Below, in pieces: positions 1 through 44,442 of a DNA stretch of 64,000 nucleotides (positions are counted from its first letter, which is position 1; each line of letters starts with the position of its first letter). The notes under the pieces are model-generated. The model saw only the letters and a program-made list of their open reading frames with translations. It made no database searches and was not told where the DNA came from. This DNA comes from Eledone cirrhosa (Eukaryota). The stretch covers positions 401,512,001-401,576,000 of the forward strand of contig OZ024740.1 in the NCBI GenBank assembly GCA_964016885.1, written 5' to 3'. The position numbers and the translations under genes are program-made.

Positions 1-3000
1 TACAGTATAGACCATTAAGTAGAATCACTAAAACATTGAACACTATGTAGAATCAACACAACATAGAACACTATGTAGAATCAGTACAACATAGAACACT
101 ATGTAGAATCAGTACAACATAGAACACTATGTAGAATCAGCACAGCATAGAACACTATGTAGAATCAGTACAGTATAGAACACTATGTATAATCAGTACA
201 ACATAGAACACTATGTAGAATCAGTACAGTATAGAACACTATGTAGGATCAGTACAATATAGAACACTATGTATAATCAGTGCAGTATAGACCACTATGT
301 AGAATCACTAAAACATTGAACACTATGTAGAATCAACACAACATAGAACACTATATAGAATCAGTACACTATAGAACACTATGTAGATTCAGTACAACAT
401 AGAACACTATTTAGAATCAGCACAACATAGATCACTATGTAGAATCAATACAACATAGAACACTATGTAGAATCAGTACAACAGAGAACACTATGTAGAA
501 TCAGTACAGTATAGAACACTATGTAGAATCAGTATGACATAGAACATTATGTATAATCAGTACATCATAGAACACTATTTAGAATCAGTACAGTATAGAA
601 CACTATGTAGAATGAGTACAGTATAGAACACTATGTAGAATCAGTACATTATAGAACACTATGTAGAATATGTGCATCATAGAACACTATGTATAATCAG
701 TACAGTAGAGAACACTATGTAGAATCAGTACAGTAGAGAACACTATGTAGAATCAGTACAGTATAGACTACTATGTAGAATCAGTACAACATAGAACACT
801 ATGTAGAATCAGTACAGTATAGAACACTATGTAGAATCAATACAACATAGAACACTATGTAGAATTAGTACAGTATAGAACACTATGTAAATGCAGTACA
901 ACATAGAACACTATGTAGAATCAGTACAACATAGAACACTATGTAGAATCACTAAAACATTGAACACTATGTAGAATCAATATAACATAGAACACTATGT
1001 AGAATTAGTACAGTATAGAACACTATGTAGAATCAGTACAACATAGAACACTATGTAGAATCAGTACATCATAGAACACTATGTAGAATCAGTACAACAT
1101 AGAACACTATGAAGAATCAGCACAACATAGAACACTATGTAGAATCAACAAAACATAGAACACTATGTAGAATCAGTACAGTAGAGAGCACTATGTAGAA
1201 TCAGTACAACATAGAACACTATGTAGAATCAGTACAATATAGAAAACTATGTAGAATCATTACAGTATAGAACACTATGTAGAATCAGTACAGTATAGAA
1301 CACTATGTATAATCAGTACAACATAGAACACTATGTATAATCTGTACTGTATAGAACACTATGTAGTATCAGTACAACATAGAACACTATGTAGAATCAG
1401 TACCACATAGAACACTATGTAGATTCAGTACAGTATAGAACACTATGTAGAATCAGTACAACATAGAACATTATGTAGAAAAAGTAGATCATAGAACACT
1501 ATGTAGAATCAGTACATTATAGAACACTATGTAGAATATGTGCATCATACAACACTATGTATAATCAGTACAGTAGAGAACACTATGTAGAATCAGTACA
1601 GTAGAGAGCACTATGTAGAATCAGTACAGTATAGACTACTGCGCAGAATCAGTACAGTATAGAACACTATGTAGAATCAGTACAGTATAGAACACTATGT
1701 AGAATCAATACAACATAGAACACTATGTAGAATTAGTACAGTATAGAACACTATGTAAATGCAGTACAACATAGAACACTATGTAGAATCAGTACAACAT
1801 AGAACACTATGTAGAATCAGCACAGCATAGAACACTATGTAGTATCAATATAACATAGAACACTATGTAGAATTAGTACAGTATAGAACACTATGTAGAA
1901 TCAGTACAACATAGAACACTATGTAGAATCAGTACATCATAGAACACTATGTAGAATCAGTACAGTATAGAATACTATGTAGAATCAGTACAGTATAGAA
2001 CACTATGTAGAATCAGTACAACATAGAACACTATGTAGAATCAGCACAACATATAATACTATGTAGAATCAACAAAACATAGAACACTATGTAGAATCAG
2101 TACAGTAGAGAGCACTATGTAGAATCAGTACAACATAGAACACTATGTAGAATCAGTACAATATAGAAAACTATGTAGAATCATTACAGTATAGAACACT
2201 ATGTAGAATCAGTACAGTATAGAACACTATGTAGAATCAGTACAGCATAGAACACTATGTAGAATCAGTACAGTATAGACTACTATGCAGAATCAGTACA
2301 GTATAGAACACTATGTAGAATCACTACAGTATAGAACACTATGTAGATTCAGTACAGTATAGAACACTATGTAGAATCAGTACAACATAGAACATTATGT
2401 AGAAAAAGTAGATCATAGAACACTATGTAGAATCAGTACAGTAGAGAGCACTATGTAGAATCAGTACAACATAGAACACTATGCAGAATCAGTACAGTAT
2501 AGAACTCTATGCAGAATCAGTACAACATAGGACACTATTTAGAATCAGCACAACATAGAACATTATGTAGAATCAATACAACATAGAACACTATGTAGAA
2601 TCAGTACAGTATAGACTACTATGCAGAATCAGTACAGTATAGAACACTATGTAGAATCACTACAGTATAGAACACTATGTAGAATCAGTACAATATAGAA
2701 CACTATGTAGAATCAGTAAGTATAGAACACTATTTAGAATCAGTACACTATAGAACACTATGTAAAATCAGTACAACATAGAACACTATGTAGAATCAGT
2801 ACAGTATAGAAAACTATGTAGAATCAGTACAACATAGAACACTATGTAGAATATGTGCATCATAGAACACTATGTAGAATCAGTACAGTAGAGAACACTA
2901 TGTAGAATCAGTACAACATAGAACACTATGTAGAATCAGTACAACATAGAACAATATGTAGAATAAGTACAACATAGAACACCATGTAGAATCAACTCAA

Positions 3001-6000
3001 CATAGAACATTACGTAGAATCAGTACAACAGAGAACACTATGTAGAATCAGTATAACATAGAACACTATGTAGAATCAGTACAGTATAGAACACTATGTA
3101 GAATCAATACAACATAGAACACTATGTATAATCAGTACAGTATAGACCACTAAGTAGAATCACTAAAACATTGAACACTATTTAGAATCAACACAACATA
3201 GAACACTATGTAGAATCAGTGCAACATAGAACACTATGTAGAATCAGTACAACATAGAACACTATGTAGAATCAGCACAGCATAGAACACTATGTAGAAT
3301 CAGTACAGTATAGAACACTATGTAGAATCAGTACAACATAGAACACTATGTAGAATCAGTACAATATAGACTACTATGCAGAATCGGTACAGTATAGAAC
3401 ACTATGTAGAATCAGTACAACATAGAACACTATGTATAATCAGTACAGTATAGACCACTATGTAGAATCACTAAAACATTGAACACTATGTAGAATCAAC
3501 ACAACATAGAACACTATGTAGAATCCGTACACTATAGAACACTATGTAGAATCAGCACACCATAGAACACTATGTAGAATCAATACAACATAGAACACTA
3601 TGTAGAATCAGTACAGTATAGAACACTATGTAGAATCAGTACAGTATAGAACACTATGTAGAATCAGTACAACATAGAACATTATGTATAATCAGTACAT
3701 CATAGAATACTATGTAGAATCAGTACAGTATAGAACACTATGTAGAATCAGTACAGTATAGAACACTATGTAGAATCAGTACATTATAGAACACTATGTA
3801 GAATATGTGCATCATAGAACACTATGTAGAATCACTACAGTAGAGAACACTATGTAGAATCAGTACAGTAGAGAACACTATGTAGAATCAGTACAGTATA
3901 GACTACAATGCAGCATCAGTACAGTATAGAACACTATGTAGAATCAGTACAACATAGAACACTATGTAGAATTAGTACAGTATAGAACACTATGTAGATT
4001 CAGTACAACATAGAACACTATGTAGAATCAGAACAACATAGGACACTATGTAGAATCAGCACAGCATAGAACACTATGTAGAATCAATACAACATAGAAC
4101 ACTATGTAGAATTTGTACAGTATAGAACACTATGTAGAATCAGTACAGTATAGAACACTATGTAGAATCAGTACATCATAGAACACTATGTAGAATCAGT
4201 ACAGTATAGAATACTATGTAGAATCAGTACAGTATAGAACACTATGTAGAAGCAGTACAGTATAGAACACTATGTAGAATCAGTACAACATAGACCACTA
4301 TGTAGAATCAGTACAGTATAGAGCACTATGTAGAATCAGTACAACATAGAACACTATGTAGAATCAGCACAACATAGAACACTATGTAGAATCAATACAA
4401 CATAGAACACTATGTAGAATCAGTACAGTAGAGAGCACTATGTAGAATCAGTACAACATAGAACACTATGAAAAATCAGCACAACGTAGAAAACTATGTA
4501 GAATCAATACAACATAGAACACTATGTAGAATCAGTACAGTATAGAACACTATGTAGAATATGTACAACATAGAACATTATGTAGAATCAGTACATCATA
4601 GAACACTATGTAGAATCAGTACAGTATAGAATACTATGTAGTATCAGTACAGTATAGAACACTATGTAGTATCAGTACAGTATAGAACACTATGTAGAAT
4701 CAGTACAACATAGAACACTATGTAGAATCTGTGCATCATAGAACACTATGTAGAATCAGTACAACATATAACACTATGTATAATTAGTACTGTATAGAAC
4801 ACTATGCAGAATCAGTACAACATAGAACACTATGTAGAATCAGTACAACATAGAACATTATGTAGAAAAAGTAGATCATAGAACGCTATGTAGAATCAGT
4901 ACAGTAGAGAGCACTATGTAGAATCAGTACAACATAGGACACCATGAGGAATCAGTACAGTATAGAACACATTGTAGAATCAGTACAACATACAACACTA
5001 TTTAGAATCAGCACAGCATAGAACATTATGTAGAATCAATACAACATAGAACACTATTTAGAATCAGTACAGTATAGACTACTATGCAGAATCAGTACAG
5101 TATAGAACACTATGTTGAATCAGTACAGTATAGAACACTATGTAGTATCAGTACAACATAGAACACTATTTAGAATCAGCACAACATAGAACACTATGTA
5201 GAATCAATACAACATAGAACACTATGTAGAAGCAGTACAACATAGAACACTATGCAGAATCAGTACAGTATAGATTACTATGTAGAATCAGTACAACATA
5301 GTACACTATGTAGAATCAGTACAGTATAGACTACTATGCAGAATCAGTACAGTATAGAACACTATGTAGAATCAGTACAACATAGAACACTATGTAGAAT
5401 CAGTACAACATAGAACACTATGTATAATCAGTACAGTATAGAACACTATGTATAATCAGTACAGTATAGAACACCATGTAGAATCAGTACAACATACAAC
5501 ACTGTTTAGAATCAGTACAACATAGAACACTATATATAATCAGTACATCACAGGGCACTATGTAGAATCAGTACAGTATAGAACACTATGTAGAATCAGT
5601 ACAGTATAGAACACTATGTAGAATCAGTACAGTATAGAACACTATGTAGTATCAGTACAACATAGAACAATATGTAGAATATGTGCATCATAGAACACTA
5701 TGTAGAATCAGTACAGTAAAGAACACTATGTAGAATCAGTACAACATAGAACACTATGCAGAATCAGTACAGTAGAGAACACTATGTAGAATCAGTACAA
5801 CATAGAACACTATGTAGAATCAGTACAGTTGAGAACTCTATGTAGAATCAGTACAACATAGAACACTATGTATAATCAGTACAGTATAGAACACTATGTA
5901 GAATCAGTACAGTAGAGAACACTATGTAGAATCAGTACAACATAGAACACTATGTAGAATCAGTAGAGTTGAGAACACTATGTAGAATCAGTACAACATA

Positions 6001-6178
6001 GAACACTATGTATAATCAGTACAACATAGAACACTATGTAGAATCAGTACAACATAGAACACTATGTATAATCAGTACAACATAAAACACTATGTAGAAT
6101 CAGTACAGTATAAAACACTACTTAGAATCAGTATAACATAGAACACTATGTAGAATAAGTATAGCATAGAACATTATG
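1..6178. repeat. Tandem satellite, 28-bp monomer (consensus ~TAGAACACTATGTAGAATCAGTACAACA / ...TACAGTA), ~220 copies, runs off the window start
   Basis: Uninterrupted 28-nt periodicity with point variants and rare 1-nt indels (e.g. ~2718). Confidence 0.98.
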
Positions 6179-6363
6179 TTTCATGGCATAGCTACGTCGC
6201 TTTACCATCTGAATTCAAACCCACGGAGGTTAACTCTCCCATTCTTCCTTTTGGGGTCGATTAATTTAGTACTATTAACGCACTGTGGTATTTTTAATCT
6301 ACATACCTCTTTTGGCCTTGTGCCTAAATCACAAACCATTACTATTATTATTACTATTACTAT
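6179..6363 (+). mobile_element. tRNA-derived SINE, diverged copy whose head is replaced by the satellite
   Basis: Colinear with the copy at 44938 (GCATAG..CTGAATTCAAAC..GAGGTTAACT..GGGGTCGAT..GGCCTTGTGCCTAAA); (ATT/ACT)n tail. Confidence 0.85.
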
Positions 6364-9942: not shown

Positions 9943-12900
9943 ATGGCCGTATTAAGAGTAGGATGTTTAAATGCTCGAGGCCTGGGATCGTCCTGGAAGC
10001 AGAGTCACCTGCTCAACGACCTCAGGACTATAGAAATGGATGTAATTGCAGTCAGCGAGACCAGGATTTCCGACACGCGCGCACTAGCCCACATTTTCGA
10101 CGACGATCAGATCTGTTAGCCGGTCGGGAATGGGAGGAGAGGTGGCAGTGCTGTTTAGGAAATGCCTGGATCTCGAGGTAAGGTCGATCTTCCGGGACCC
10201 GGACGGGAAGTTGGTGGTCCTGGAAGTGAACAATAATGAAGGTGGTGCCTTTAGACGGGTGGCCGTCTATGCTCCTACTAGGGCAGCACGGCCGGACTTC
10301 TTTAGACGCCTGGAAGACTTTCTGGGTACGTCTTGCCCTTTACTGTTAGCGGGGGACTGGAACGGCATCTTAGACGCACGCTGGGACTGTGTGGGAGTAT
10401 CCGATAGGAGCGGGGGGTGCAAAAGCCTCGAGAACCTGATCAGCCAGTCCCAACTGTCTGACAGGAACCGACTAGATTTCCCTAATGCGCCAGTGTGGAC
10501 CTGGGCTAACCCCATAAGGCCATCTAGATCGTATATAGACAGGATATTCATTAGGAAAATAGACAGAAATAGTGTAAGATGTCCACGTTTTGAAACGGTC
10601 ACCTATTCAGATCACAAGTTTGTGATCTGTATGGTCGACCTAGATAAGACACGTAGGTTAGGACCTGGTTACTGGAAGCTAAACATGTCATTTCCGGCAC
10701 GTAAGGCTTACAGGGACCAGGTCAACAATTTAGTGAAGAAAAAGTTGACAGTGGGAATCGTCGACAATAGATGGTGGGGGGCTCTCAAAAGAGAGATTAG
10801 AGTAATGTCGATAGAGTTTAGCAAAGAAGTAGCATTAGAGAAAAATAGAAGGGAGGGGGAGTTGGTAGATAAGTTAGACGAGGCTATTGGTAGTGGCATT
10901 GCAACTGACATGCTAGCGGCGAGAATGGCATTAGACCATTTCTTCAATGCGAAACACGAAGGTTGCATTGTCAGAGCTAAGGCGCGTGCTCTGAGAAACG
11001 AGGGAACCAAAGCTGTTCGATGGGCCCGCGTGGCAGAGGCGCAGCGTGGTAATAAATCCACGATTCGGTCTTTGACGGACCGAGACGGGCACGAGCTGAG
11101 CGATTCCAAGAGGATGTGTGAGGCCTTTCGTCAACATTTTGCTCGGTTGTTCGGGGGAAGTGGCGGGTCAGAGGTGGTGGCGGACTTCAGTCACTACCTC
11201 GATGGCTTGCCGCAACTCTCGACGGCTGTCTCTGGGCGCTGCGAAAGGCCAATTACTTCAGCCGAGATTCAGGATGCCCTTGTCGGCTGCATGAGGCGAA
11301 AGTCACCGGGTTTGGATGGTCTGCTCTACAAGCTTTTCGTAAATATGCCAGACTTGTTCTCCAATCTCCTCGAAGCCCTCTACTGCAACTGGCAGCAAAA
11401 TGGGAGTATTCCCAGTTTTGTGAGCCGGGGCGTAGTGACGCTGATCAGGAAAGACGAGAACAAGAGGGACACATTAGACAATTTCAGGCCCATAACTCTG
11501 CTCAACACAGAGTTTAAGATTTTGGCCAGGGTGTTAGCGAAGAGGTTGGCACTTGTTGTTGGGGATTTGGTTGGGGAGGCGCATCCCAACCAGGTCCATA
11601 CACGACAACCTCCACCTAATGCGATACATCATAGAGAGGGTAGGGTGTAAACCTGGCTTCGGTGGGGCTCTGATCAATTTAGATCAATCGAAAGCATTCG
11701 ATAGTGTCGACGATCGGTACCTGGAGGCTGTCCTCAAGGCGGTTGGCTTCAGCCCCGTCTTCAGAAGCTGGATCGCTGCAATTCACAGCGGCACCTGCTC
11801 GATGGTCAAAATTAATGGCCACCTCTCGGAACCGTTTCAGGTCTCCCGATCGGTCCGTCAAGGGTGCCCTCTCTCCTCCCTTCTGTACGTACTGACACTC
11901 GAGCCTTTACTGCGGAAGCTGGAACTGTTGCAGGTCCTCCCGCTCGAACCGGGACGCGGAAAGGCTGTGTCGGCTTATGCGGACGACATCACCGTGATGG
12001 TGTCGGACACCTCAGAAATCGAGGTGGTTGGCAACTTATTGGAGGAATATGAAAGGTTAATGGGAGCAAATCTTAACCCGGAAAAGTCAGTGGGCTTGCA
12101 ACTCGGCACCTGGAGAGGAAAGTCCATGCCGTCCAACAGCGTCGTTAGGCGCTGGACGGACGGACCGGAAAAGTTGCTAGGGGTTTGGTTCGGGCCAGAC
12201 CTCCAGGTGGATAAGAATTGGGACGAGGTGACGGGCAGTGTAGTCAGTCTCACCCAGAAATGGGCTGGGTTGAAGCTATCACTGAAAGGCCGGGCGGAGC
12301 TGGCGAACGCGTACATCGCGTCCGTCATCTACTACCGTCTGACTGTCGTCCCTCGCCCCCGTTCGCGCCTCGCCATCTTGGAACGGCTGCTCTTCAAATT
12401 CTTGTGGAGGGGTCAGGTTCCGCTGGTGCGGCGGTCCATCTGCTGCCAGCACACTCTACGTGGAGGGCTGGGCATGCCGTGACTAATGATGCGCAGGCAC
12501 GCGCTAAGGCTGTGGCATCTCCAGATATTCTGCCTAAACGGTGAACAGGTGTGGTCGCCGTTTGTCAGACGGGCTTTTCCGCAGCTCGTTTCTTTGACTG
12601 AGTTGCAGTCCTGGGTCAAGAAGAGACCGAGACTGGGTGACTGGCATCTGGAATGTTACCAGGCACTCACTACCCTCTACCATGTGGGCAATACGGTCAG
12701 TGGAACGTCCACTCTCGAGTTCTATAGAGGATTAGTGGTGGGCAAGTGCGACGACGCACTCGGAGAGGGTCTGGGAGTCAACGAAGTCGAACTAACCAGT
12801 CTGTACCGGAGGACTTTCGAGCCTTGGACGATGAATAATTTAACCAAAATCCCTCGCTTGGCAGTGCTACTGGGCGGCACTGCCGGTTCGATATAAACTC

Positions 12901-13347
12901 TACAGGCACGGAAGTGCTGTCAGACGGACCTGCCCGAGATGCGCGCAGAGCGACGAAACCGTTCTGCACGCACTCGTCCAGAATCCGTGCATTACTGACT
13001 TGTGGAGTTATGTTGAACAGCTGTTGTCGCGTGTAGAACGGATCCGGCTATCGGCCGAGTCCATAGTGAAGATCGACCCGCCGCCTTCTTTTGGCCAGGA
13101 GGAGCAGGCAATTTTCCTCTGTCTGGTGGCAGTAGCGAAAGAGGTTGTATGGTGGACGAGGTTGAAAGGACTGAAGACAGACACTTTTCTCTTCGGCCAA
13201 TCCCTCATCAACTTTTTCAAGTTTCACTTGGAAAGGAAGGTGAGGGTGGAGAGAGAAGTGCTGCCCCCCAGTACATTTGCTGAAAGGTGGGTGAATGTGG
13301 CGAGAATGGCCCGTGTGAGTGGGCCTACTTTGGTCATGCGGCTGTAG
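9943..13347 (+). pseudogene. Tx1 ORF2: AP endonuclease + reverse transcriptase + C-terminal Cys/His motif, broken into about six pieces
   Basis: MAVLRVGCLNARGL, VYAP, GDWN, SYIDRIF, SDH, PGYWKLN, KSPGLDG, FRPITLLN, LDQSKAFD, VRQGCPLS, YADD, GGLGMP, CPRC..ETVLH. Confidence 0.93.
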
Positions 13348-18488: not shown

Positions 18489-21400
18489 TTAGAGGAATTT
18501 GTCCAGAGACTTCTTGAATTTTGTGTGGTCAGTTTCTGTTTTGACGTGTCCTGGTGTGATGTTGAAGAGAGCAGGGCCAATTGAGGTGAAATAATTGTGC
18601 CGTATTGTTGTTATGTGTTGCGATTTAGATTTTTGTTTGGGACGGATAGCACGGGCCCCAAGCCTTGGGTGTATTTTGAAGGTGATGCCAACATCATTTG
18701 GGCAGTGCTGATGAAACATTTTCCACATCATGCAGATAATATAACGCTCACGGCGACGTTGGAGTGAGTAAGGTTTCAGCTTTTCTAGTCGACCCCAGTA
18801 GTCAAGGTCTGACATGCCATCTATCTTTTTCGTGATTGCCCTTTGAGGAGCTTCAAGTTTCATGATACTTTGTTTCGTGTGGGGAGACCACAGTGGACAA
18901 CAGTATTCAAGGTGTGGTCGGGCAAAAGTGGAGAAGAGAAGGATAATGGTGTGGGAATCTCTCGACTGGAATGTTCTGAGGATCCAGGAACATATTCTGC
19001 GGGCCATGTCAACTTTGCTGCTTATATGCGTGGCCCAGCTTATGTTGCTGTCCACGGTTACTCCCAAGTCTCTGATGTTGTTAGATGCCACGAGAGTTTC
19101 ACCGGGGGAAAGGGAGTACGGGAGTTTCAGAGCATCCTCTTTTGCAAAGTGGATCAGTTCGAATTTGTCTTCGTTCAGTAACATGTTGTTCTTTTCCACC
19201 CATTGGGTAACAGCCAGTAGGTCTGACTGAAGGCTTATCCGGTCATCCACGCCATTGATGACCTTTTGGAGCTTGGAATCATCAGCGAAAATTCTAATGT
19301 TGCTGTGTTTGATGATGTCAGTGATGTCATTAATATAGATGATGAAGAGAAGTGGGCCCAACACAGTGCCTTGTGGGACCCCACTAGTGACTTTGGCTGG
19401 GCTGGATTTGACTCCTTCGACTACAACATGTTGGGTTCTGTTTGACAGGAAGCTTTTGATCCACTGCAGCAGCTTTCCACTGACACCAATATTGGACAGC
19501 TTTCTCAGTAGAATGTTGTGATCAACCCTGTCAAAGGCCTTGCTGAAATCAAGGTAGATAACATCAGTGTTGGAACCCTCTCCCAAGGCTCTCAAAATGT
19601 CATCAAAGTGATGCAGTAGCTGCTTCAGGCAATCCCTTCCATTACGGAATCCATGCTGGTTGGAGTTCAGCATATTGTTACTCTCAAGGAAGTGAGTCAT
19701 TCGCGATCTCACCACTCTCTCAAATACCTTAATGATATGAGAGGTGAGTGAGATTGGACGGTAATTCACGGCAAGGGATTTGTTTCCTTTTTTGAAAACT
19801 GGGACAACAGACTGAGATAAAAGGTTTTCAGGCACATATCCAGCATCCAGTGAGTTCCGCCACAGATTGGCAAGAGGAGATCCATGTCGGTGTTGACACG
19901 CCTTCAAGACACAAGCAGGGAACCTATCGGGACCTACTGCTGAATTATGCTTGATTTCCTTTATTGCCGCTAAGACATCAGGGGCGCCAAACGTTATGTC
20001 CGATAAGGTGTAATGGGGAGTAACATCGCCGATACAGCCCAGATCGGCCATATCAGGATTGCTGTAAACAGAGCAGTATTGTTTCTGCAGTATCTCAGTC
20101 ATGGTTGTAGCATTGTCATGAAGAGTGCCATTTTCATCAATTAGAGGACCAACAGTAGAGCCAGTGATTTTGTGTTTTTTTGCAAATGAAAAGAACACTT
20201 TGGGATTGAGTTTGATCTTCTCAATGGCCCAGGCCTCTTCGGCTCTTCTCTGATTGTTGATGATAGACATCATATTGTTTTGGAGGTTATGTTTTTTAAT
20301 CTCTAGTGATGAAATGGCAGTCAAGTTTATGTGTTGCTGCTGAAAGTATTTCAGCTTGTTGATTTTATTGTTATTTCTCTTAATTTTCCTGATGAGCGTT
20401 TTTCTATTTCTAGGGATTCTGCTCTTAGATTTGTTTCTAGTTCTTAATGGGGTGTGTTTTGCACATATGTTTGTAACAGTGTCCACAAATGTCTGCCAGG
20501 ACTTTTTGATGTTAGTGGGTGTATGAGTGTGCGTGAAGGACCAGTCGACATGTGCAAGATCATGACTGATCGCTTCCCAGTTTGCATTGTGGAAATCCAT
20601 AGCGTCAAACGGATGGACAGGAGTGATAATATTGGGTTTGTATATTGGACGGTGGAATATCAGATCACAGAGAACCATGTCATGATCAGAGAGTAGAGTT
20701 TTCTCCACTGCCATATTGTGGATATTGTCAGTGTAATTGCTGAAAATTAAGTCTAGGACGTTTTTGTGGCACCTCGTTGGTTCGATCACCAGTTGGGACA
20801 GGAAGAAATCATCCATGAAGTCAAGAAGCGATTCCACTGCTTCCCTCTCAGAGGTTGAGGCAGAAGAACCTGGTGGCAGGCTGTTTGTGGACCAGTCAAC
20901 TCCGGGGAGGTTGAAGTCCCCCATCTTTAAGATGTTGTCAGGGTGACATTCTTGGATGAAACACTTTATGCTGTTGAGGCATTCCTTGAAGCATGGTAAA
21001 GGCGTTTGGGGTGGCCTATAGAGCCCAACTACTATTAGGTTGTTGGTTTGACTGAATACAGTGACTGCTTCGCAGTATCCATTAGTAAATATGTTCATAG
21101 CCTCTGTTGAGAAAGAATTATGGACATAAATGGCAGTCCCACCCTTTCTTCTGCCAGCGCGATCAGCACGGATGGCTTTGAAATGTTTCACTTTCACCTC
21201 GGCTTCCAAGTGGAGGTTACTGAGATGGGTTTCAGTGAGGACGAAGAAAGGGATGTGGTTTGGATGGACATCAACCCAGTCCTCCAGGAATTTGATCTTC
21301 CATTTTTGAGTAGTGGTGGAAGGGCTGATGCCTTGGGCGTTAAGCAAAAATGTTGAGGCGAGAGTGGATGGTTTTAATTGTTTTGGTGTGTTGTTAATTT

Positions 21401-21680
21401 GTTTGTTTGTTAATGGCAGCAATGGGAGTTTGTGCAGTGGGTGATAGTGGAGGATGGTGCTGGGTGATAGCTCGAATGTTTTTTCCAGTTCTTTTGCCAG
21501 ATTCATTATGGCTAAAAAAGAGGAAGAAGTTTCCTGTTTAGGAGCCTGTTGGTGACTGTGATAGTGGTTATTTTTATGTAGGTTATGGTTTTTGTTTTTG
21601 CTTTTATTTTTATTTTTATTTTCATTTGTCCGACGCGTCCCCGGGAGATGGGTAAAGGGACAATCCCGGTGTAAACACAA
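18489..21680 (-). CDS. CR1-type AP endonuclease / reverse transcriptase, 1063 aa open
   Basis: [92 protein letters not shown]. Confidence 0.93.
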
Positions 21681-21748
21681 TCTATCTCGCAGGGAAAAGT
21701 GGCAGATTTGTGGATTCCTTGTTTGAGTTATTGGTGGTTGTGTTGGTG

Positions 21749-21995
21749 TTAAATTAGAGTATGTATTATGGTGGTGGCTGTTTGTGGGGATAGACCGTTT
21801 TGTCCTATTCTATAGCGTAGAGAGTAGCGGCAAATGATGGGGTTTCGAGTGGGTGTGTATGTGTGTGTGTGTGTTGTGAGAGGTGTAGATGATGGTTTGA
21901 GTAGGTTTTGACGACCTTTGTGGGCTGTGGGAGGGAGAGTTCTTGTATTGGTATTAGAAGGTAAATTCCTTGAGATAGCAGTACGCAAAGATGTT

Positions 21996-22605: not shown

Positions 22606-22782
22606 TATATATATATTTTTTTTTGTTTTTCTTGTGTGTGAGTGAGAAGTGTATATATAAATATGAGTATATATATATAATTATATTCTGGTTATTTGAA
22701 ATTAATGAAATTAATGAAAAGACGATCCTAATTAAACTATTTTTCACTGTGAACAATTTGTCACCATTTTCTTTTCCGTTTA

Positions 22783-22941
<159 letters not shown>

Positions 22942-22987
22942 GTATATATATATATATATATATATATACGTATGTATATATATATGT

Positions 22988-23168
22988 TTCTTTTATTTGC
23001 CACTAGGGCATCAAAAGTGGGACAAGTACAATGGGGGGAGTTTACACAAAAAGGCGTCCTCAATAAGGAGGAGGCAATAACAAAATATAAAAATAAAATA
23101 AGATATAACAAAAAATAAAATTTATAACAAAATCCTCAATAGAGAGGAGGCGCCTTGGGGGGTCGCAC
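22988..23168 (-). mobile_element. Tx1-family 3' end fragment
   Basis: Reverse complement TTGTACTTGTCCCAC..GCCCTAGTGGCAAATAAAA resembles 13573-13615. Confidence 0.6.
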
Positions 23169-23187
23169 ACATATATATATATATATA

Positions 23188-25085
23188 TATGAAATACGTT
23201 CCTTCACGCACAAGGCGCCAAGGTACGCATGTATTGTCCAACCAAATGCCAGTGTGGTTCAATGGCGGGTTAATAAATTAACGAGCCAGAACAAATATAA
23301 ACAAGGTTTAGTAAATAATGAAAAAGTTTCAAAATAAATTAAAAAAAATTGACTTTACCTACTATAGTTACCTTTACCGATCGGTTTCGAATCCCAAAAA
23401 TAAAACGGAGACCATACCGCCTTCGTTGCAAAGAAAGATTCTCGTCAGAAGGTTCTTTTCATTCAAAGAATATAAAATTCCTGAATTTAAATCACAAACC
23501 AGCGCTATCAAAAACTGTTCCTGGGATGAGAGTGGATGATGTAGAACAGGTTTATCAAGGGCCGTAGCAAAGATAGAGGCAAAAGGAGGTAGATCAAACT
23601 AGCCACAGCTATTACTAGCAGCAGTCGGAATGACCAAGTTTGTTCTCAACGTTAGTGGAGGTAGTAGTAATATGAAATACGTTCCTTCACGCACAAGGCG
23701 CCAAGGTACGCATGTATTGGTTGGACAAGAACTGGGGGAAGAACGGGGTTGCATGTTCAGGAAGAGGTGTGTGGGGGGTGGGGTGGGGGGAGAGAAATCC
23801 GGAGGCTGAAGGTGTAAATATGTGGTGGAAAGCACGTGCGTGTGGGGTTTAAGCGTGTTGTGGGTGTAGGTGGCGTGTGGGAAAAAACATTTTTTTTGGG
23901 TGTGTGTGGGTGAGTTATAAAGGTGATTCCGTAAGAAGATGTGGTTGAAAGGTTGGTAAACTCCTAGGATGGTAGTTGATTCCGCGGTCAAGCTCCACAT
24001 ACGAGTAATCCATGGAGAGATGGTCGGAAGAGGAGAGATGTGGGGTGCGCGCGCAACAGGAAGTGGTCAAGGCGGTAGGAGTGCTGTGTGTTTGTGTGTG
24101 CTGGGAGGTGGTCAGAGGGCATAGCAGCAGTCGGGTGGAATGGTAAAGGGGCGAGGATGGGTAGGTGTGAAAGTTGGAGTGAGGAGGGTGTGTGTGTGTA
24201 TTAGTAGAGGTGTTAGCGGGATGAGTGAGGTTGGAGAGAGGGTGTGGGTGGATCGGGGAGAGAAGGGTGTGGGGGTCGATGGAGGGAGTGTGGTGTTCTG
24301 GTGTGTGTGTAGTTTGATGAAGGGGTTGTTAGTGGGTGTTAGTATACGGGAGGTGGAGAAAGGGTTGAATGCAGGTGTGAGTGGGGGTTAGTGGTGGTAG
24401 GGTGTGTAGAGTTGGTGGTGTACGAGGGTGTGTGGGTACGTGTGCGTGGGGGGGGGGGGTTCGTGATGTTAGTTGCGTGTGGGCTGGGTGGTGTAAGTGG
24501 GTGCGTTTGTTCGTGTGCTTGGGGTCAGGGGGTGTTAGTGATGTTAGTTGCGGGGTGATGGGATGGATGTGTGGGGGTGAGGGTTAGTGGTGGTAGTAGG
24601 GTGTGTGTTTAGTGTGAGCGCGTGTATATATGTGCCGGTGGGTGTGTGCGTGCGATAAGATGGGGGAGGAGAAGAAGGGAGGGATGTTAGTATGTTAGTT
24701 GGGGAAGGGTGGTCGGATGAGTGGTGGAGTGGAGGTGTTAGTATTGTTAGTTGTGGGGTGGGCGGTGAAAAGGAGGGGTGTGTTAGTGGTGTTAGTGGGG
24801 GATATGTGTGGGGGGAGGGGGGGGGCGGTCGAAGGCTAAAGAAATAAGGGTGGGGAGTTCAGGCCGGGGGGAGTGTGGGTCTGTAAGATGAAGATGGTTC
24901 TTTGTTCAACTCTGAGGAGATTGTCGGGTGTTCCGTGGCATTGGAGTAGGCCACAGACTGTGAGATGGCGTGCGGAATGTCCAGGGGCACCAAAGTGGCG
25001 GGCGATGGGGGAACTACCACCGAGACGAATGTCCCGGAGGTGCTCAGTGAATCGGTCCGCCAGGCGACGTCCCGCATAATTGCAA
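23188..25085 (-). mobile_element. 5'-truncated Penelope-like element: GIY-YIG C-terminus, long C/A-rich UTR, hammerhead-bearing terminal region
   Basis: RRLADRFTEHLRDI..PIARHF..H....RVEQRTIFILQT..PPGLN (24836-25085); ~49-bp direct repeat 23188-23236/23671-23719; ends at (TA)n. Confidence 0.78.
23370..23453 (-). ncRNA. Type I hammerhead-like motif
   Basis: CUGACGA, stem II GAAUCU/GGAUUC, GAAA-CCGA-UC; stem I only partial (ACCUU/AAGGU with a bulge). Confidence 0.55.
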
Positions 25086-31484: not shown

Positions 31485-31566
31485 TATATATATATATATA
31501 TATTAGAGAGTGAGGTTTTTTTTAAACAAAATGAAAAAGAACCGAGGTGTCCTACACGAGTGAAAG

Positions 31567-31687
31567 TATAAAGAAAAAAAGATGAAATCGAAAATGCAAC
31601 TGGAGTCTTATTTAAAAAAAAAATATATATATATATATTGTTTAAATAAGACTCCAGTTGCATTTTCGATTTCATCTTATTTTCTTT

Positions 31688-31690
<3 letters not shown>
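31567..31690. repeat. Fold-back, ~50-bp arms around an A/(TA)n spacer
   Basis: GATGAAATCGAAAATGCAACTGGAGTCTTATTTAAA and its exact reverse complement. Confidence 0.9.
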
Positions 31691-31720
<30 letters not shown>

Positions 31721-34409: not shown

Positions 34410-35174
34410 CAAAATGTTATGAAGAAAGAGATTTAAAAAATAGTGTTATTCGGTTCATGACCATATTTTGTATGAAAGAGAAAAGAGAAGTTGAACGTAT
34501 CGGAATTTAGACCCTCATCAATAGAGCACAAGACAGCTTAGAAAAAGAATCAGAAAAAATATGAAAAACTAGAAAATGTGTGTTGTTTTTTATATTGTGC
34601 ATGGATCACCGTATACACAGGTGGGCAGTTCTATAGTTCCTAAAGGTGTCTACTTGAGTCTGGTTGTATAAGCATTTTGTATGACCGTGGTTTGTCAGTG
34701 TATGTATCATGTATGAAAGAAAATCTGGGACAATAAATATCGTTAAAACGACATTCAACTTCAAGGTGGACTAGCTAATTTTGAAATAAACAAAAAGGCT
34801 GTTGTAGTTATCATGTCAACATAATAAAATGCCCAGAGAAAAATGCATGTATATATGTGCTGATGTGTGTCTTTATTAATAAGTGTGATTGTATTTCGTT
34901 GTATGTGTACAGTATCTAAATGTGTGTGAGAGTATTTCAGTATGAGCGCGTGGATGAGGAAGAGAGGTCGTTCATTAAGGCGATGGTGGATAGAGGTATT
35001 TAGATAAATAGATAGATATAGATATGTTTATCCCGTGTTCAATTGGGGTTAACCACAGTAAGTAAGGTACTCAATACATAGCAGAGTATAAATATTTAAT
35101 TCGGAGTAAAGCACCAGAACATCCCTGATGATTTCCTCCGAATGAAACAGTTCTAGTCCTGTAGAAGCCATTTT

Positions 35175-35257
<83 letters not shown>

Positions 35258-35323
35258 GAAGAGAGAAGAAACATTTAGATATAATTAGTAATAAAATGTA
35301 TCATACCTAAACTGCTTCTAGAT

Positions 35324-35413
35324 TCCTCGACTACGTAGTTTCGTGGCATAAACAAAAACAATATATCATAAAGATATAGAGTCCTTGCGAGGTCTGCCGA
35401 CTTATCAAGAGGA
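35324..35413 (-). ncRNA. Type I hammerhead ribozyme, U3:A8 variant (copy 1)
   Basis: Stem I UCCUC/GAGGA; UUGAUAA; stem II GU(C)GGCA/UGCCAC; GAAA; palindromic stem III ACUACGUAGU; GUC site. Confidence 0.85.
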
Positions 35414-35918
35414 TACCTCATTTTACTAGTCTCAAGAACGCGTCTACACGACGTGAGAAAGAATCCCAAAAGGCGGAGGGGGAGATAGTCACGCGATATA
35501 ACGGTCGAGAAACAGAGCTAAGCCTCTTATAACCCCGAAGAAAATACCACGGAGGCGGAGGGGGTATTTATATCGAGGCCGTAGAAGGGGTGGTGAAGGA
35601 GGCGAGAAGTATGAGTAATGGAAGCTTTCCAGCTGTCCCCACACTTCAAAGATTGCTCGACCAGAGGGAGTTATTAACAATATATTTAGAAACACACAGA
35701 TACATACGGACACACACATATATACATGAATGCATCCGCACCCAACTGTGAGTTAAGGGTGCCAACTTCACCGATGTTGCTCAATGAATGACTGGGACAG
35801 ACCAATCCAGTTGAACTAGACTGAACCAGTATCAGAGTTAAAAATACATTATGAAGAGAGAAGAAACATTTAGATATAATTAGTAATAAAATGTATCATA
35901 CCTAAACTGCTCCTAGAT

Positions 35919-36008
35919 TCCTCGACTACGTAGTTTCGTGGCATAAACAAAAACAATATATCATAAAGATATAGAGTCCTTGCGTGGTCTGCCGACTTAT
36001 CAAGAGGA
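35919..36008 (-). ncRNA. Type I hammerhead ribozyme, U3:A8 variant (copy 2)
   Basis: Same core and stems as copy 1. Confidence 0.85.
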
Positions 36009-36380
36009 TACCTCATTTTACTAGTCTTAAGAACGCGTCTACACGACGTGAGAAAGAATCCCAAAAGGCGGAGGGGGAATATATATATACATGTGTGTGT
36101 ATGTGTGCGTGAATACATACATGGCGTGAGTGTGTGTTTGAAAAAAGAAACGTGTTACATTCTATTTCTTCTCACATGATTTCTAACGCCCACTACAAAA
36201 CGACCGTAAGATGTCACTACAAAGCATATCTTTCTCAACATATATGTTTGAAACTTTATGTATTTTGTCACTGATGAAGTTCCAAGACAATACAATATTC
36301 TGGATAAAACAAATTTTACACTTTGCCAATTTCAAGAATATCAATGTTGTTGACGAGGCACTATCCGTGTTTTAGGAGAT

Positions 36381-42841: not shown

Positions 42842-44442
42842 TACATTGGTGTCACTTCATCTAAGTTTAAGTTTCGCTTTTACAATCATAAAGAGTCTTT
42901 TTCTAATCCAGATAAAACATTCTCTACATCACTCTCACAATTAATATGGTCTTTGAAGGAAAAATATAACAACTACTCAATTTCTTTGGAGTAAATTAAA
43001 GAATTCTGGTTCCTACTGCAATGCATCCATTTCACCAAAATACAATCTTTGCAATTTAGAGACTTTATTGATAATTACCAATTATGGTAATTTAATTAAT
43101 AAGAAAAATGAGATATTTAGCAGCTATCAACATAAGTCTGGAAGAACTTTTCAAGCATTATACAAATTTTGAAAAAATATTGACTATTAATCATTCTTAA
43201 AAAATTATATACATAACGTTTTGCCTTACCGGTAAAAATTATTTGTCGTTTTTATCTAGTAAATTTATTTCATGATGTGTATCAGTATCCTATGTTTGGA
43301 TTGAGAAAGGTCATTGTTTAACTAGAAATTTCTTGATTTGTTGTTTGAAATATATTTTGGTTTTCAGAATACTTAAATGTTTTAAATGTCTAAATGTTCG
43401 AATAGAATGAACGAGTTATCTTCCTTTGTTTACATTCTTCGTAAATAATTTTGTTCTGTCCGAATAGCTTGCTAAAGTATATTTAACATGATTTATACAG
43501 CTTAATACTATATGGTAGTCCTTAAAGGGAAACTATATATAATAATAAGTAATTATTGAAGTAAATTAGAAATAATAAAACTTTTGAGAATAAATATAAC
43601 TACAAATTAATCCTGTAATGAAATGACAATCAATGAACTGAAATGATTTTATAAAGAAAATAGAATAATTCAAATAACAAATGTTCTTAATATAATATAA
43701 AATATATATACTGTTGGTGATATATGCATACGTTTTAATAAATATCTTTATACATATTTAATAATTATTTAAATATGCTTTAAAGATAAAAATGATTTTA
43801 AATGTTGTAACAAAATATTTATTGAATATATTACTTAATTAAACTATGTATCTGATCGCTATAAAAAATATTCTTATATGGTTTAATTTTGATATAATAT
43901 ATAAGTATAATTAGCTTAAACATAACCAAATACAAAAGATATTAACAATTTCATGTTATTTAATTGGTTGCCTCAATTTGACTTAATATTTGAAAACAAC
44001 GGTCTGTATACCTTTCCACGTTATTTCTTTTTCTTCTTCTCTCGTATCTCTCGCTTCCGTTTTCCTTTTATATATTTATTCCCTAATACTTCTATTTACT
44101 CATTTAAATATTTATGTATGTATGTGTTTATTTATTTTCTTCTTGCGTTTCCTCATATTAACCCCCTCCATATACCCATATCTCGCTCCACATCCTCTTC
44201 TTCTTTAAATTTAAGTTTATCATGTTATTATTTGTGGTATATAAATGTTGAGATTTGTTGTAATAAAGCACTGCCAATACTGGAATTGAACTTTTAAGAC
44301 CGTTAAGGTATGTCATACATCAATTCATTTATTTTATCTGACGAGACGAGGACGTACTGAAAAAACAGAACAGTACCTTCGAAATATATATAATAAAACA
44401 TATATTTTGATTATGTGAATGTCTTCATTTATTATTATTCAA

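What the first reader, a model, noticed from the sequence alone, without database searches (positions are those of the whole stretch)
35253..36078. Twin-hammerhead, retrozyme-like unit: two intact U3:A8 hammerheads 595 nt apart
Seen: two near-identical 231-bp direct repeats. On the minus strand each holds a complete type I hammerhead (stem I UCCUC/GAGGA, core UUGAUAA..GAAA, stem II, self-complementary stem III ACUACGUAGU, GUC site). No RT ORF lies between them. Known: PLE pseudo-LTRs and animal retrozymes carry hammerheads, palindromic stem III favours dimeric folding, and C3:G8 can be replaced by U3:A8. Inference: a read-through transcript would self-excise a 595-nt monomer that could circularise and be copied by a PLE RT, i.e. 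a non-autonomous ribozyme retroelement possibly undescribed in this lineage.
Basis: partly seen in the sequence, partly recalled or inferred. Interest (0 to 1): 0.85.

Follow-up and report, generated by a model that had tools for sequence, protein, structure and literature searches.

The report
Young Penelope-mobilised hammerhead retrozyme family
This is one copy of a young, non-coding 595-base repeat that carries a hammerhead-ribozyme motif, occurs thousands of times in this animal genome and inserts with the same two-start-site signature as a co-resident Penelope-like retrotransposon, so it is likely an animal 'retrozyme' spread by that element's enzyme, likely via a predicted RNA circle.

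Summary
Confirmed. Two 231-bp repeats, 595 nt apart with 3 mismatches, each hold a type I U3:A8 hammerhead motif with a palindromic stem III. The window holds a 1.4-unit, 5'-truncated copy of a family with 7,488 exact hammerhead cores genome-wide. Copies are head-to-tail 588-595-nt units in (TA)n with no ORF. An older subfamily is 75% identical but keeps the ribozyme core.

Copies end at two fixed sites after the predicted cut, about +80 (A) and +245 (B). Inverted copies pair A with B: of 36 A-selected inverted copies, 33 end at B and none at A. This is the Penelope-like (PLE) 'tail' signature. An autonomous Neptune-type PLE here shows the same rule (+76/+141) and also has a U3:A8 hammerhead, but shares no sequence. 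Most arms read through the cut site, so the template is a circle or an uncleaved multimer.

Cleavage, expression and circles are untested. The active fold lies 3.6-7.2 kcal/mol above the minimum.

Verdict: new variant of the known non-LTR retrozymes, valuable as genomic evidence for PLE mobilisation. An unchecked scan note reports a similar PLE-type repeat without a ribozyme in another genome.

The parts
35253..36078 (-). Whole insertion: single 5'-truncated arm, monomer positions m441-595 + m1-595 + m1-76/80 (m1 = first base after the predicted cut)
   Evidence: L001
35848..36078 (-). Upstream 231-bp repeat
35253..35483 (-). Downstream 231-bp repeat, ending at site A
35919..36008 (-). Hammerhead motif 1 (type I, U3:A8); predicted cut between 35924 and 35923
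   Evidence: core conserved across subfamilies
35324..35413 (-). Hammerhead motif 2; predicted cut between 35329 and 35328
35329..35923 (-). 595-nt monomer, cut to cut; GC 42%; circular fold z -6.0 on this strand, -1.1 on the other
35844..35848 (-). Site A (m76-80), internal copy: preferred 3' end and inferred reverse-transcription start; used at 35249-35253 in this insertion
   Evidence: 2,558 exact A+(TA)n junctions genome-wide
35675..35680 (-). Site B (m244-249): second preferred 3' end; the A-to-B stretch is a ~165-nt PLE-type 'tail'
   Evidence: 1,013 forward-strand B+(TA)n junctions
35845..35857 (-). Strand m67-79, predicted to pair across the cut site (m587-595 plus m1-5): possible ligation splint and ribozyme block
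   Evidence: predicted only
35171..35252 (.). (TA)n target microsatellite at the 3' end; a short TA run also flanks the 5' end at 36079-36088

Best explanation
This is a 1.4-unit copy of a young, several-thousand-copy, non-coding tandem repeat with a type I U3:A8 hammerhead motif in every 590-595-nt unit, likely copied into (TA)n microsatellites by the enzyme of a Neptune-type Penelope-like element, likely from an RNA circle that predicted ribozyme cleavage and ligation would make. Steps: (1) inferred: arrays with two or more units are transcribed. (2) Predicted: the palindromic stems III of two units pair into a double hammerhead, which releases a 595-nt monomer, perhaps with protein help. 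(3) Predicted: strand m67-79 holds the two ends together for a host ligase and then locks the ribozyme in the circle. (4) Shown as genomic anatomy, inferred as mechanism: the PLE protein nicks both strands of (TA)n and starts two cDNAs on the same RNA variant, one at site A and one at site B. Each runs through the cut site for up to 4 or more units, and the two are joined head to head; or only one arm survives, as here. The best partner candidate is the PLE family of L091.
For: Tandem, dispersed, 94-100% identical copies; 7,488 exact cores. Ribozyme core 94% vs 74% identity between subfamilies, and its stems are near invariant. Sense-strand circular fold z -6.0 (old subfamily -4.8; antisense -1.1). 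Two fixed ends. Of 60 A-selected loci, 36 were called inverted: 33 end at B, 0 at A, 3 other; P about 2e-12 if ends were independent. Old subfamily, 28 B-selected loci (30 fetched, two duplicate): 17 A+B and 1 B+B by reading; the rest single-armed or unresolved. The L091 PLE family (RT + GIY-YIG; 10,850 exact hammerheads) has a U3:A8 core and ends at +76 and +141-143. It is A+B in 13 of 13 resolvable inverted loci out of 22 and has young copies (0.2-1.1% within-locus). PMC11167929 shows that the PLE tail is the stretch between two internal RT starts and that both target strands are cut and extended. Within-locus divergence is 0.42% between opposite arms and 0.55% within an arm, vs 2.46% between loci. 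Subfamily-diagnostic alleles almost never segregate within a locus. 56 of 59 A arms and 24 of 33 B arms cross the cut; the longest is 2,573 nt. The inter-repeat stem III duplex is predicted at P 0.86-0.97.
Against: No RNA evidence of any kind. The full double hammerhead is 3.6-7.2 kcal/mol above the minimum-energy fold, and stem I is mostly absent from the ensemble. Covariation does not beat the shuffle control (185 of 500), though it beats slid controls (95% vs 33-58% paired). No Rfam hammerhead match. In the literature, min-HHRs of PLEs cleave poorly (PMC4209133), 8 of 9 Xenopus retrozyme dimers did not cleave (10.64898/2026.07.22.740005), and HHR cleavage was not needed for PLE insertion in vitro (PMC11167929). 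Homogeneous linear multimers would leave the same genomic pattern as a circle. No sequence is shared with the L091 PLE, several other PLE families are also young, and HHR-selected L091-family copies average 2.4% within-locus divergence, older than this burst. One A+A (L007) and one B+B (L135) exception exist.
Confidence: 0.55

Rival explanations
1. Same non-autonomous, PLE-mobilised family, but the template is a linear, uncleaved multi-unit transcript. The hammerhead cleaves rarely or serves as a folded protein-binding or 5'-processing element, and circles are minor or absent.
For: Active fold not favoured. HHR mutants do not affect insertion by a Poseidon PLE in vitro, and unprocessed RNA was the main substrate (PMC11167929). 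3 of 94 arm 5' ends lie exactly at m1, a weak hint that some templates are linear (p 0.07 for a +/-3 window).
Against: No recurring unit-position-specific variants among 100 loci (214 within-locus events, 194 distinct). Arrays of 4-5 units arise although most loci hold 1-3 hammerheads. The unit folds as a closed, strongly self-paired RNA in both subfamilies.
Confidence: 0.33
2. The copies are truncated pseudo-LTR ends of a coding PLE that was not sampled.
For: All end signatures are those of PLEs. Only 50 of 10,596 GIY-YIG candidates were examined. One copy is fused to a PLE ORF (L179/L242).
Against: Head-to-tail arrays of the complete ORF-less unit (up to 5 hammerheads in one orientation). 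In 161 element loci, 13 had a PLE protein hit and 12 of these were separated by a TA run. The fused case joins mid-ORF to m171 through 5-nt microhomology to a frameshifted PLE copy. tblastn of 7 PLE proteins gave only a 15-aa hit at E 0.04.
Confidence: 0.05
3. It is a LINE-mobilised SINE-like element, or a DNA-level minisatellite, and the hammerhead is incidental.
For: LINEs are abundant (two in this window). 5' inversions also occur with LINE twin priming (recalled). Li et al. propose local tandem amplification.
Against: No poly(A) or single fixed 3' end. Both arms begin at fixed internal sites and copy overlapping sequence. The A/B rule is shared with a GIY-YIG PLE, and the ribozyme core is selectively conserved.
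Confidence: 0.05

Closest known systems
Animal non-LTR retrozymes (Cervera & de la Pena 2020, PMC7229834; Li, Clavereau & Pollet 2026, 10.64898/2026.07.22.740005)
   Same: Non-coding tandem units each with a type I hammerhead, GC below 50%, thousands of dispersed copies, self-paired predicted circle, co-existence with PLEs.
   Different: Unit 588-595 nt (150-450 bp in the 2020 paper, but within the 51-972 bp range of the 2026 preprint). U3:A8 core, long branched helix II and 10-nt palindromic helix III. Ribozyme predicted to be blocked in the circle, unlike most metazoan retrozymes. PLE two-site tail and inverted arms, which I did not see described for retrozymes in the sections read.
Penelope-like elements, Neptune type (Craig et al. 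2021, PMC8557442; Frangieh et al. 2024, PMC11167929; Cervera & de la Pena 2014, PMC4209133)
   Same: Partial tandems, inverted 5' arm, tail at one end only, microsatellite targets, hammerhead near the ends; U3-A8 core known from Schistosoma Cercyon elements.
   Different: No RT/GIY-YIG ORF; tail about 165 nt rather than 30-40 bp; large rather than minimal hammerhead.
Non-autonomous Chlamys PLEs such as MRC1 (passage in PMC8557442)
   Same: ORF-less elements forming multicopy head-to-tail insertions by PLE machinery.
   Different: Those generally share their 3' end with an autonomous family and mostly lack a canonical hammerhead; this one shares no detected sequence with a resident PLE.

Membership tests
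Non-LTR retrozyme | Tandem units, at least two consecutive with a complete type I hammerhead | tested here: met
   34 of 60 A-selected insertions hold 2 or more hammerhead motifs, either orientation
Non-LTR retrozyme | No protein coding | tested here: met
Non-LTR retrozyme | GC below 50% and highly self-paired monomer | tested here: met
   GC 42%; circular fold z -6.0 vs 40 shuffles, a prediction
Non-LTR retrozyme | No LTR, PBS or PPT | tested here: inconclusive
   Ends vary and the repeats are tandem overlap, so no LTR; PBS and PPT were not searched
Non-LTR retrozyme | Self-cleavage | not testable with these tools
   Only folding and conservation:
Non-LTR retrozyme | Expressed as linear and circular RNA | not testable with these tools
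   Only contigs of runs of unrecorded kind were available
Non-LTR retrozyme | Target-site duplication when present | tested here: inconclusive
   Hidden by (TA)n: far ends TA-flanked in 53 of 59 loci
Autonomous PLE | ORF with RT and GIY-YIG endonuclease | tested here: not met
PLE-type insertion (works like) | Partial tandem, inverted 5' arm, tail at one end | tested here: met
PLE-type insertion (works like) | Microsatellite target bias | tested here: met
Non-autonomous derivative of a specific PLE | Sequence shared with an autonomous pLTR | tested here: not met
   blastn against 50 GIY-YIG loci gave only short AT-rich hits of 27 nt or less (E 0.6 or worse) apart from microsatellite-like sequence and one unrelated neighbouring copy; the sample is small
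Rfam hammerhead families | Covariance-model match | tested here: not met
   the 59-nt helix II arm and U3:A8 core may explain the miss (inference)
Hammerhead ribozyme (motif) | Core nucleotides, G10.1-C11.1, three helices, NUH site | tested here: met
   among 118 sampled motifs (partly selected by an exact core pattern) core positions vary in at most 2; U3-A8 is a described covariant (PMC4209133)

The most novel reading that the evidence does not exclude
A ribozyme-made RNA circle has evolved, without sequence homology, both start sites of a Penelope enzyme. A PLE dimer primes from both nicked target strands on one circle, one subunit at A and one at B, and rolls in parallel. One short strand (m67-79) is at once ligation splint, ribozyme lock and RT start site. 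This would be the first retrozyme whose whole cycle can be read from its insertions and rebuilt with a named partner enzyme.
Probability: 0.3. Interest if true: 0.72.

Novelty: new variant of a known kind. Interest (0 to 1): 0.5.

Why it matters
Which retrotransposon mobilises animal retrozymes, and whether circles are the template, is left open by both papers on them (PMC7229834: PLEs are 'a strong candidate'; the 2026 preprint gives phylogenetic support and asks for the mechanism). This family carries the PLE two-start-site signature with near-strict A/B pairing, and young autonomous PLEs with the same rule sit in the same genome. An existing in vitro assay (PMC11167929) could therefore test partner, start sites and circle-versus-linear template directly. 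It would also show whether a U3:A8 hammerhead is maintained for catalysis. The kind of element itself is known.

Tried and rejected
Expression: no RNA holder listed.

Spread to other organisms: 17 organism labels hold part of the unit. Runs X4 and X6 hold one low-depth ~620-nt contig (X6's closes on itself) and X10 two shorter ones, all with mostly the majority alleles of run X1. X4 and X8 also hold the window's LINE at similarly low depth. I read this as low-level carry-over, not horizontal transfer or a circle. X6 has the unit but not the LINE, which is inconclusive.

Autonomous PLE with the same palindromic stem III and a short stem II: a pattern search gave 11 hits. By their matched sequence and the three loci printed they look like deletion or inversion variants of this family.

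L179/L242 fusion to a PLE ORF as a template switch that names the partner: not accepted. The two retrozyme units are identical over 503 nt, while the PLE part is 5% diverged from L101 with 5 gaps, and it is a single case.

Microhomology at the inversion junctions: of 33, 3 failed to anchor, 12 had 0-8 nt overlap (mean 1.9 vs 0.67 random) and 18 had unassigned bases, partly from my crude extension. No claim is made.

Pile-up of 5' ends at the cut: 3 of 94, p 0.07.

Rfam: no relevant match. Alignment A2 contained a junk one-base row and was only read by eye.

Dropped rows: L160 (parse failure; an ordinary A arm) from arm counts; L202 and L210 (short internal inversions) from B-arm counts; overlapping duplicate loci. 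The reverse-strand count (3,659) is inflated by multiple gap lengths and was not used.

Earlier scan findings by sequence: none.

Full report
Observation. Repeats 35253-35483 and 35848-36078 are 231 bp, 595 nt apart and differ at three bases. On the minus strand each contains a complete type I hammerhead motif: stem I UCCUC/GAGGA, core UUGAUAA (U3:A8), stem II with G10.1-C11.1 and a bulged C, a long branched extension of helix II, GAAA, the palindrome ACUACGUAGU and a GUC site, with C17 at 35924 and 35329. Rfam does not recognise it. No ORF lies in the unit. Below, m1 is the first base after the predicted cut.

The family. The window is G000:C1:401512001-401576000 in a 3.0-Gb genome. I take it to be an octopus-like mollusc from recalled likeness of a neighbouring SINE and from genome size; this was not tested. 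The 23-nt hammerhead core has 7,488 exact matches and the reversed control has none. At a mean of 1.8 hammerheads per insertion that is roughly 4,000 insertions. Copies are head-to-tail units of 588-595 nt, 5'-truncated at scattered points, often with an inverted arm, and nearly always in (TA)n. The window's copy is a single arm of 1.4 units, so the two repeats are tandem overlap rather than terminal repeats. An older subfamily (109 exact diagnostic matches) is 75% identical overall. It keeps the 42 core and stem positions at 94% against 74% elsewhere (two old monomers) and has the same ends. Formal covariation is not above the shuffle control (185 of 500) but far above slid controls, and the helix II extension changes by G-U/A-U and one double substitution.

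Two fixed ends. Copies stop at m76-80 (site A; 2,558 exact junctions with TA) or at m244-251 (site B; 1,013 on the forward strand), not at the ribozyme cut. I fetched 60 of the first 100 listed A junctions on C1. Of these, 36 were called inverted: 33 end at B, none at A, and 3 otherwise, including the mis-parsed L160. If ends were drawn independently the chance is about 2e-12. Reading the other samples by eye gives 16 A+B and 1 A+A among the best hits, and 17 A+B and 1 B+B among old-subfamily loci. PLE insertions carry a tail at one end only (PMC8557442, passages). A purified Poseidon PLE cuts and extends both target strands and starts reverse transcription at two internal RNA sites that bound the tail (PMC11167929, parts 1-2 of 4). 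Here the tail is about 165 nt.

Candidate partner. The genome has 10,596 GIY-YIG candidates, of which I examined 50. Several families with a Neptune-type cysteine linker carry hammerheads. The L091 family encodes RT plus GIY-YIG and has a minimal U3:A8 hammerhead with 10,850 exact copies. It ends at +76 and +141-143 after its cut, with end motifs that resemble by eye those of this family (pyrimidine run then TATA at A; TTTCTA then ATATAT at B). It is A+B in 13 of 13 resolvable inverted loci out of 22. Some copies are as young as this family (0.2-1.1% within-locus), but the HHR-selected sample averages 2.4%. It shares no detectable sequence with the unit, and other young PLE families exist, so the partner is a candidate only. 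No coding PLE carrying the unit was found: 13 of 161 element loci had a PLE protein hit, 12 of them beyond a TA run, and the one fusion looks secondary.

Template. Units and opposite arms of one insertion differ by 0.55% and 0.42%, against 2.46% between loci; 12 rare alleles are shared across opposite arms. Subfamily-diagnostic alleles almost never segregate within a locus, and within-locus differences do not recur by unit position in 100 loci. Both arms therefore come from one RNA variant, and insertions are very recent. 56 of 59 A arms and 24 of 33 B arms pass through the cut site, and 19 of 59 A arms pass two, so a cleaved linear monomer cannot be the usual template. A circle explains this; a homogeneous uncleaved multimer does too. 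Three of 94 arm ends lie exactly at m1, a weak hint that cleaved RNA exists.

Folding (all predicted). The circular sense strand folds at z -6.0 (old subfamily -4.8, antisense -1.1). In a two-unit precursor the palindromes pair with each other at P 0.86-0.97, as a double hammerhead needs. The complete active fold, however, is 3.6-7.2 kcal/mol above the minimum and stem I is mostly absent. In the linear monomer and in the circle, strand m67-79 pairs with m1-5 and m587-591 (P about 0.8-0.98). This helix is also in the consensus fold of both subfamilies, with only one-sided changes. It would bring the ends together, block the ribozyme in the circle, and it ends at site A. Low or protein-assisted cleavage would fit what is reported for PLE hammerheads (PMC4209133, parts 1-2 of 4; PMC11167929), and 8 of 9 Xenopus retrozyme dimers were inactive (10.64898/2026.07.22.740005, parts 1-3 of 5).

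Comparison and novelty. By every sequence-testable criterion this is an animal non-LTR retrozyme (PMC7229834: passages and sections 13, 14, 17). Cleavage and circles are untested. It is not an autonomous PLE, but it inserts like one. U3-A8 is known from Schistosoma PLEs (PMC4209133). I found no description of this family or of cephalopod retrozymes in six searches. The O. vulgaris repeat annotation has no mention of hammerhead, retrozyme or ribozyme in its main text (PMC13282606, term search). No supplements were read (those of the preprint are closed), and repeat libraries could hold the family as an unknown or Penelope repeat.

Verdict: new variant of a known kind; interest 0.5. Confidence that it is a PLE-mobilised, non-autonomous hammerhead repeat is about 0.9. 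Confidence in the full circle-templated mechanism is 0.55.

Noticed in passing
window 23369-23453 (-), within about 22730-23900: Another type I hammerhead motif: canonical CUGACGA core, 53-nt helix II arm, 10-nt palindromic stem III. High depth in run X1 and a relative beside L124. Possibly a second retrozyme-like or PLE family with the same architecture.
   Followed up: no
window 44332-44398 (+): Third hammerhead motif (CUGACGA, AT-palindromic stem III, stem I UUUUAU/AUAAAA) ending about 40 nt before a TA run; looks like a PLE 3' end.
   Followed up: no
window about 35000-35170 (+): Decayed PLE-type end with a CUGAUGA...GAAA hammerhead core abutting the same (TA)n as the finding; relatives flank L096, L116 and L146. 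PLE-type elements cluster in shared TA runs.
   Followed up: partly
window 31560-31693: Short inverted insertion that matches by eye the hammerhead-downstream region of the candidate partner PLE (L091 family), one arm ending at its site A (alignment).
   Followed up: partly
L215, L225, L229 and others (G000 C1): Many L091-family insertions are tiny inverted pairs whose arms both stop 60-75 nt upstream of the hammerhead cut, at or near a palindrome.
   Followed up: no
L242:4509-6610: PLE ORF of the L101 family fused mid-ORF to retrozyme position m171 through a 5-nt microhomology.
   Followed up: partly
window 35555-35572 and 35472-35482 (-): TATA-like motif at m352 and two GC-box-like motifs at m360 and m442; a possible internal promoter, untested.
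   Followed up: no
window 18489-21809 (-) and 10088-13347 (+): LINE with an open 1,106-aa endonuclease-RT frame, and a fragmented LINE.
   Followed up: partly
window 7-6179: 28-bp satellite, 220 copies.
   Followed up: no
window 33472, 36431, 39407: Three copies of a SINE-like repeat (families D14 and D16).
   Followed up: no
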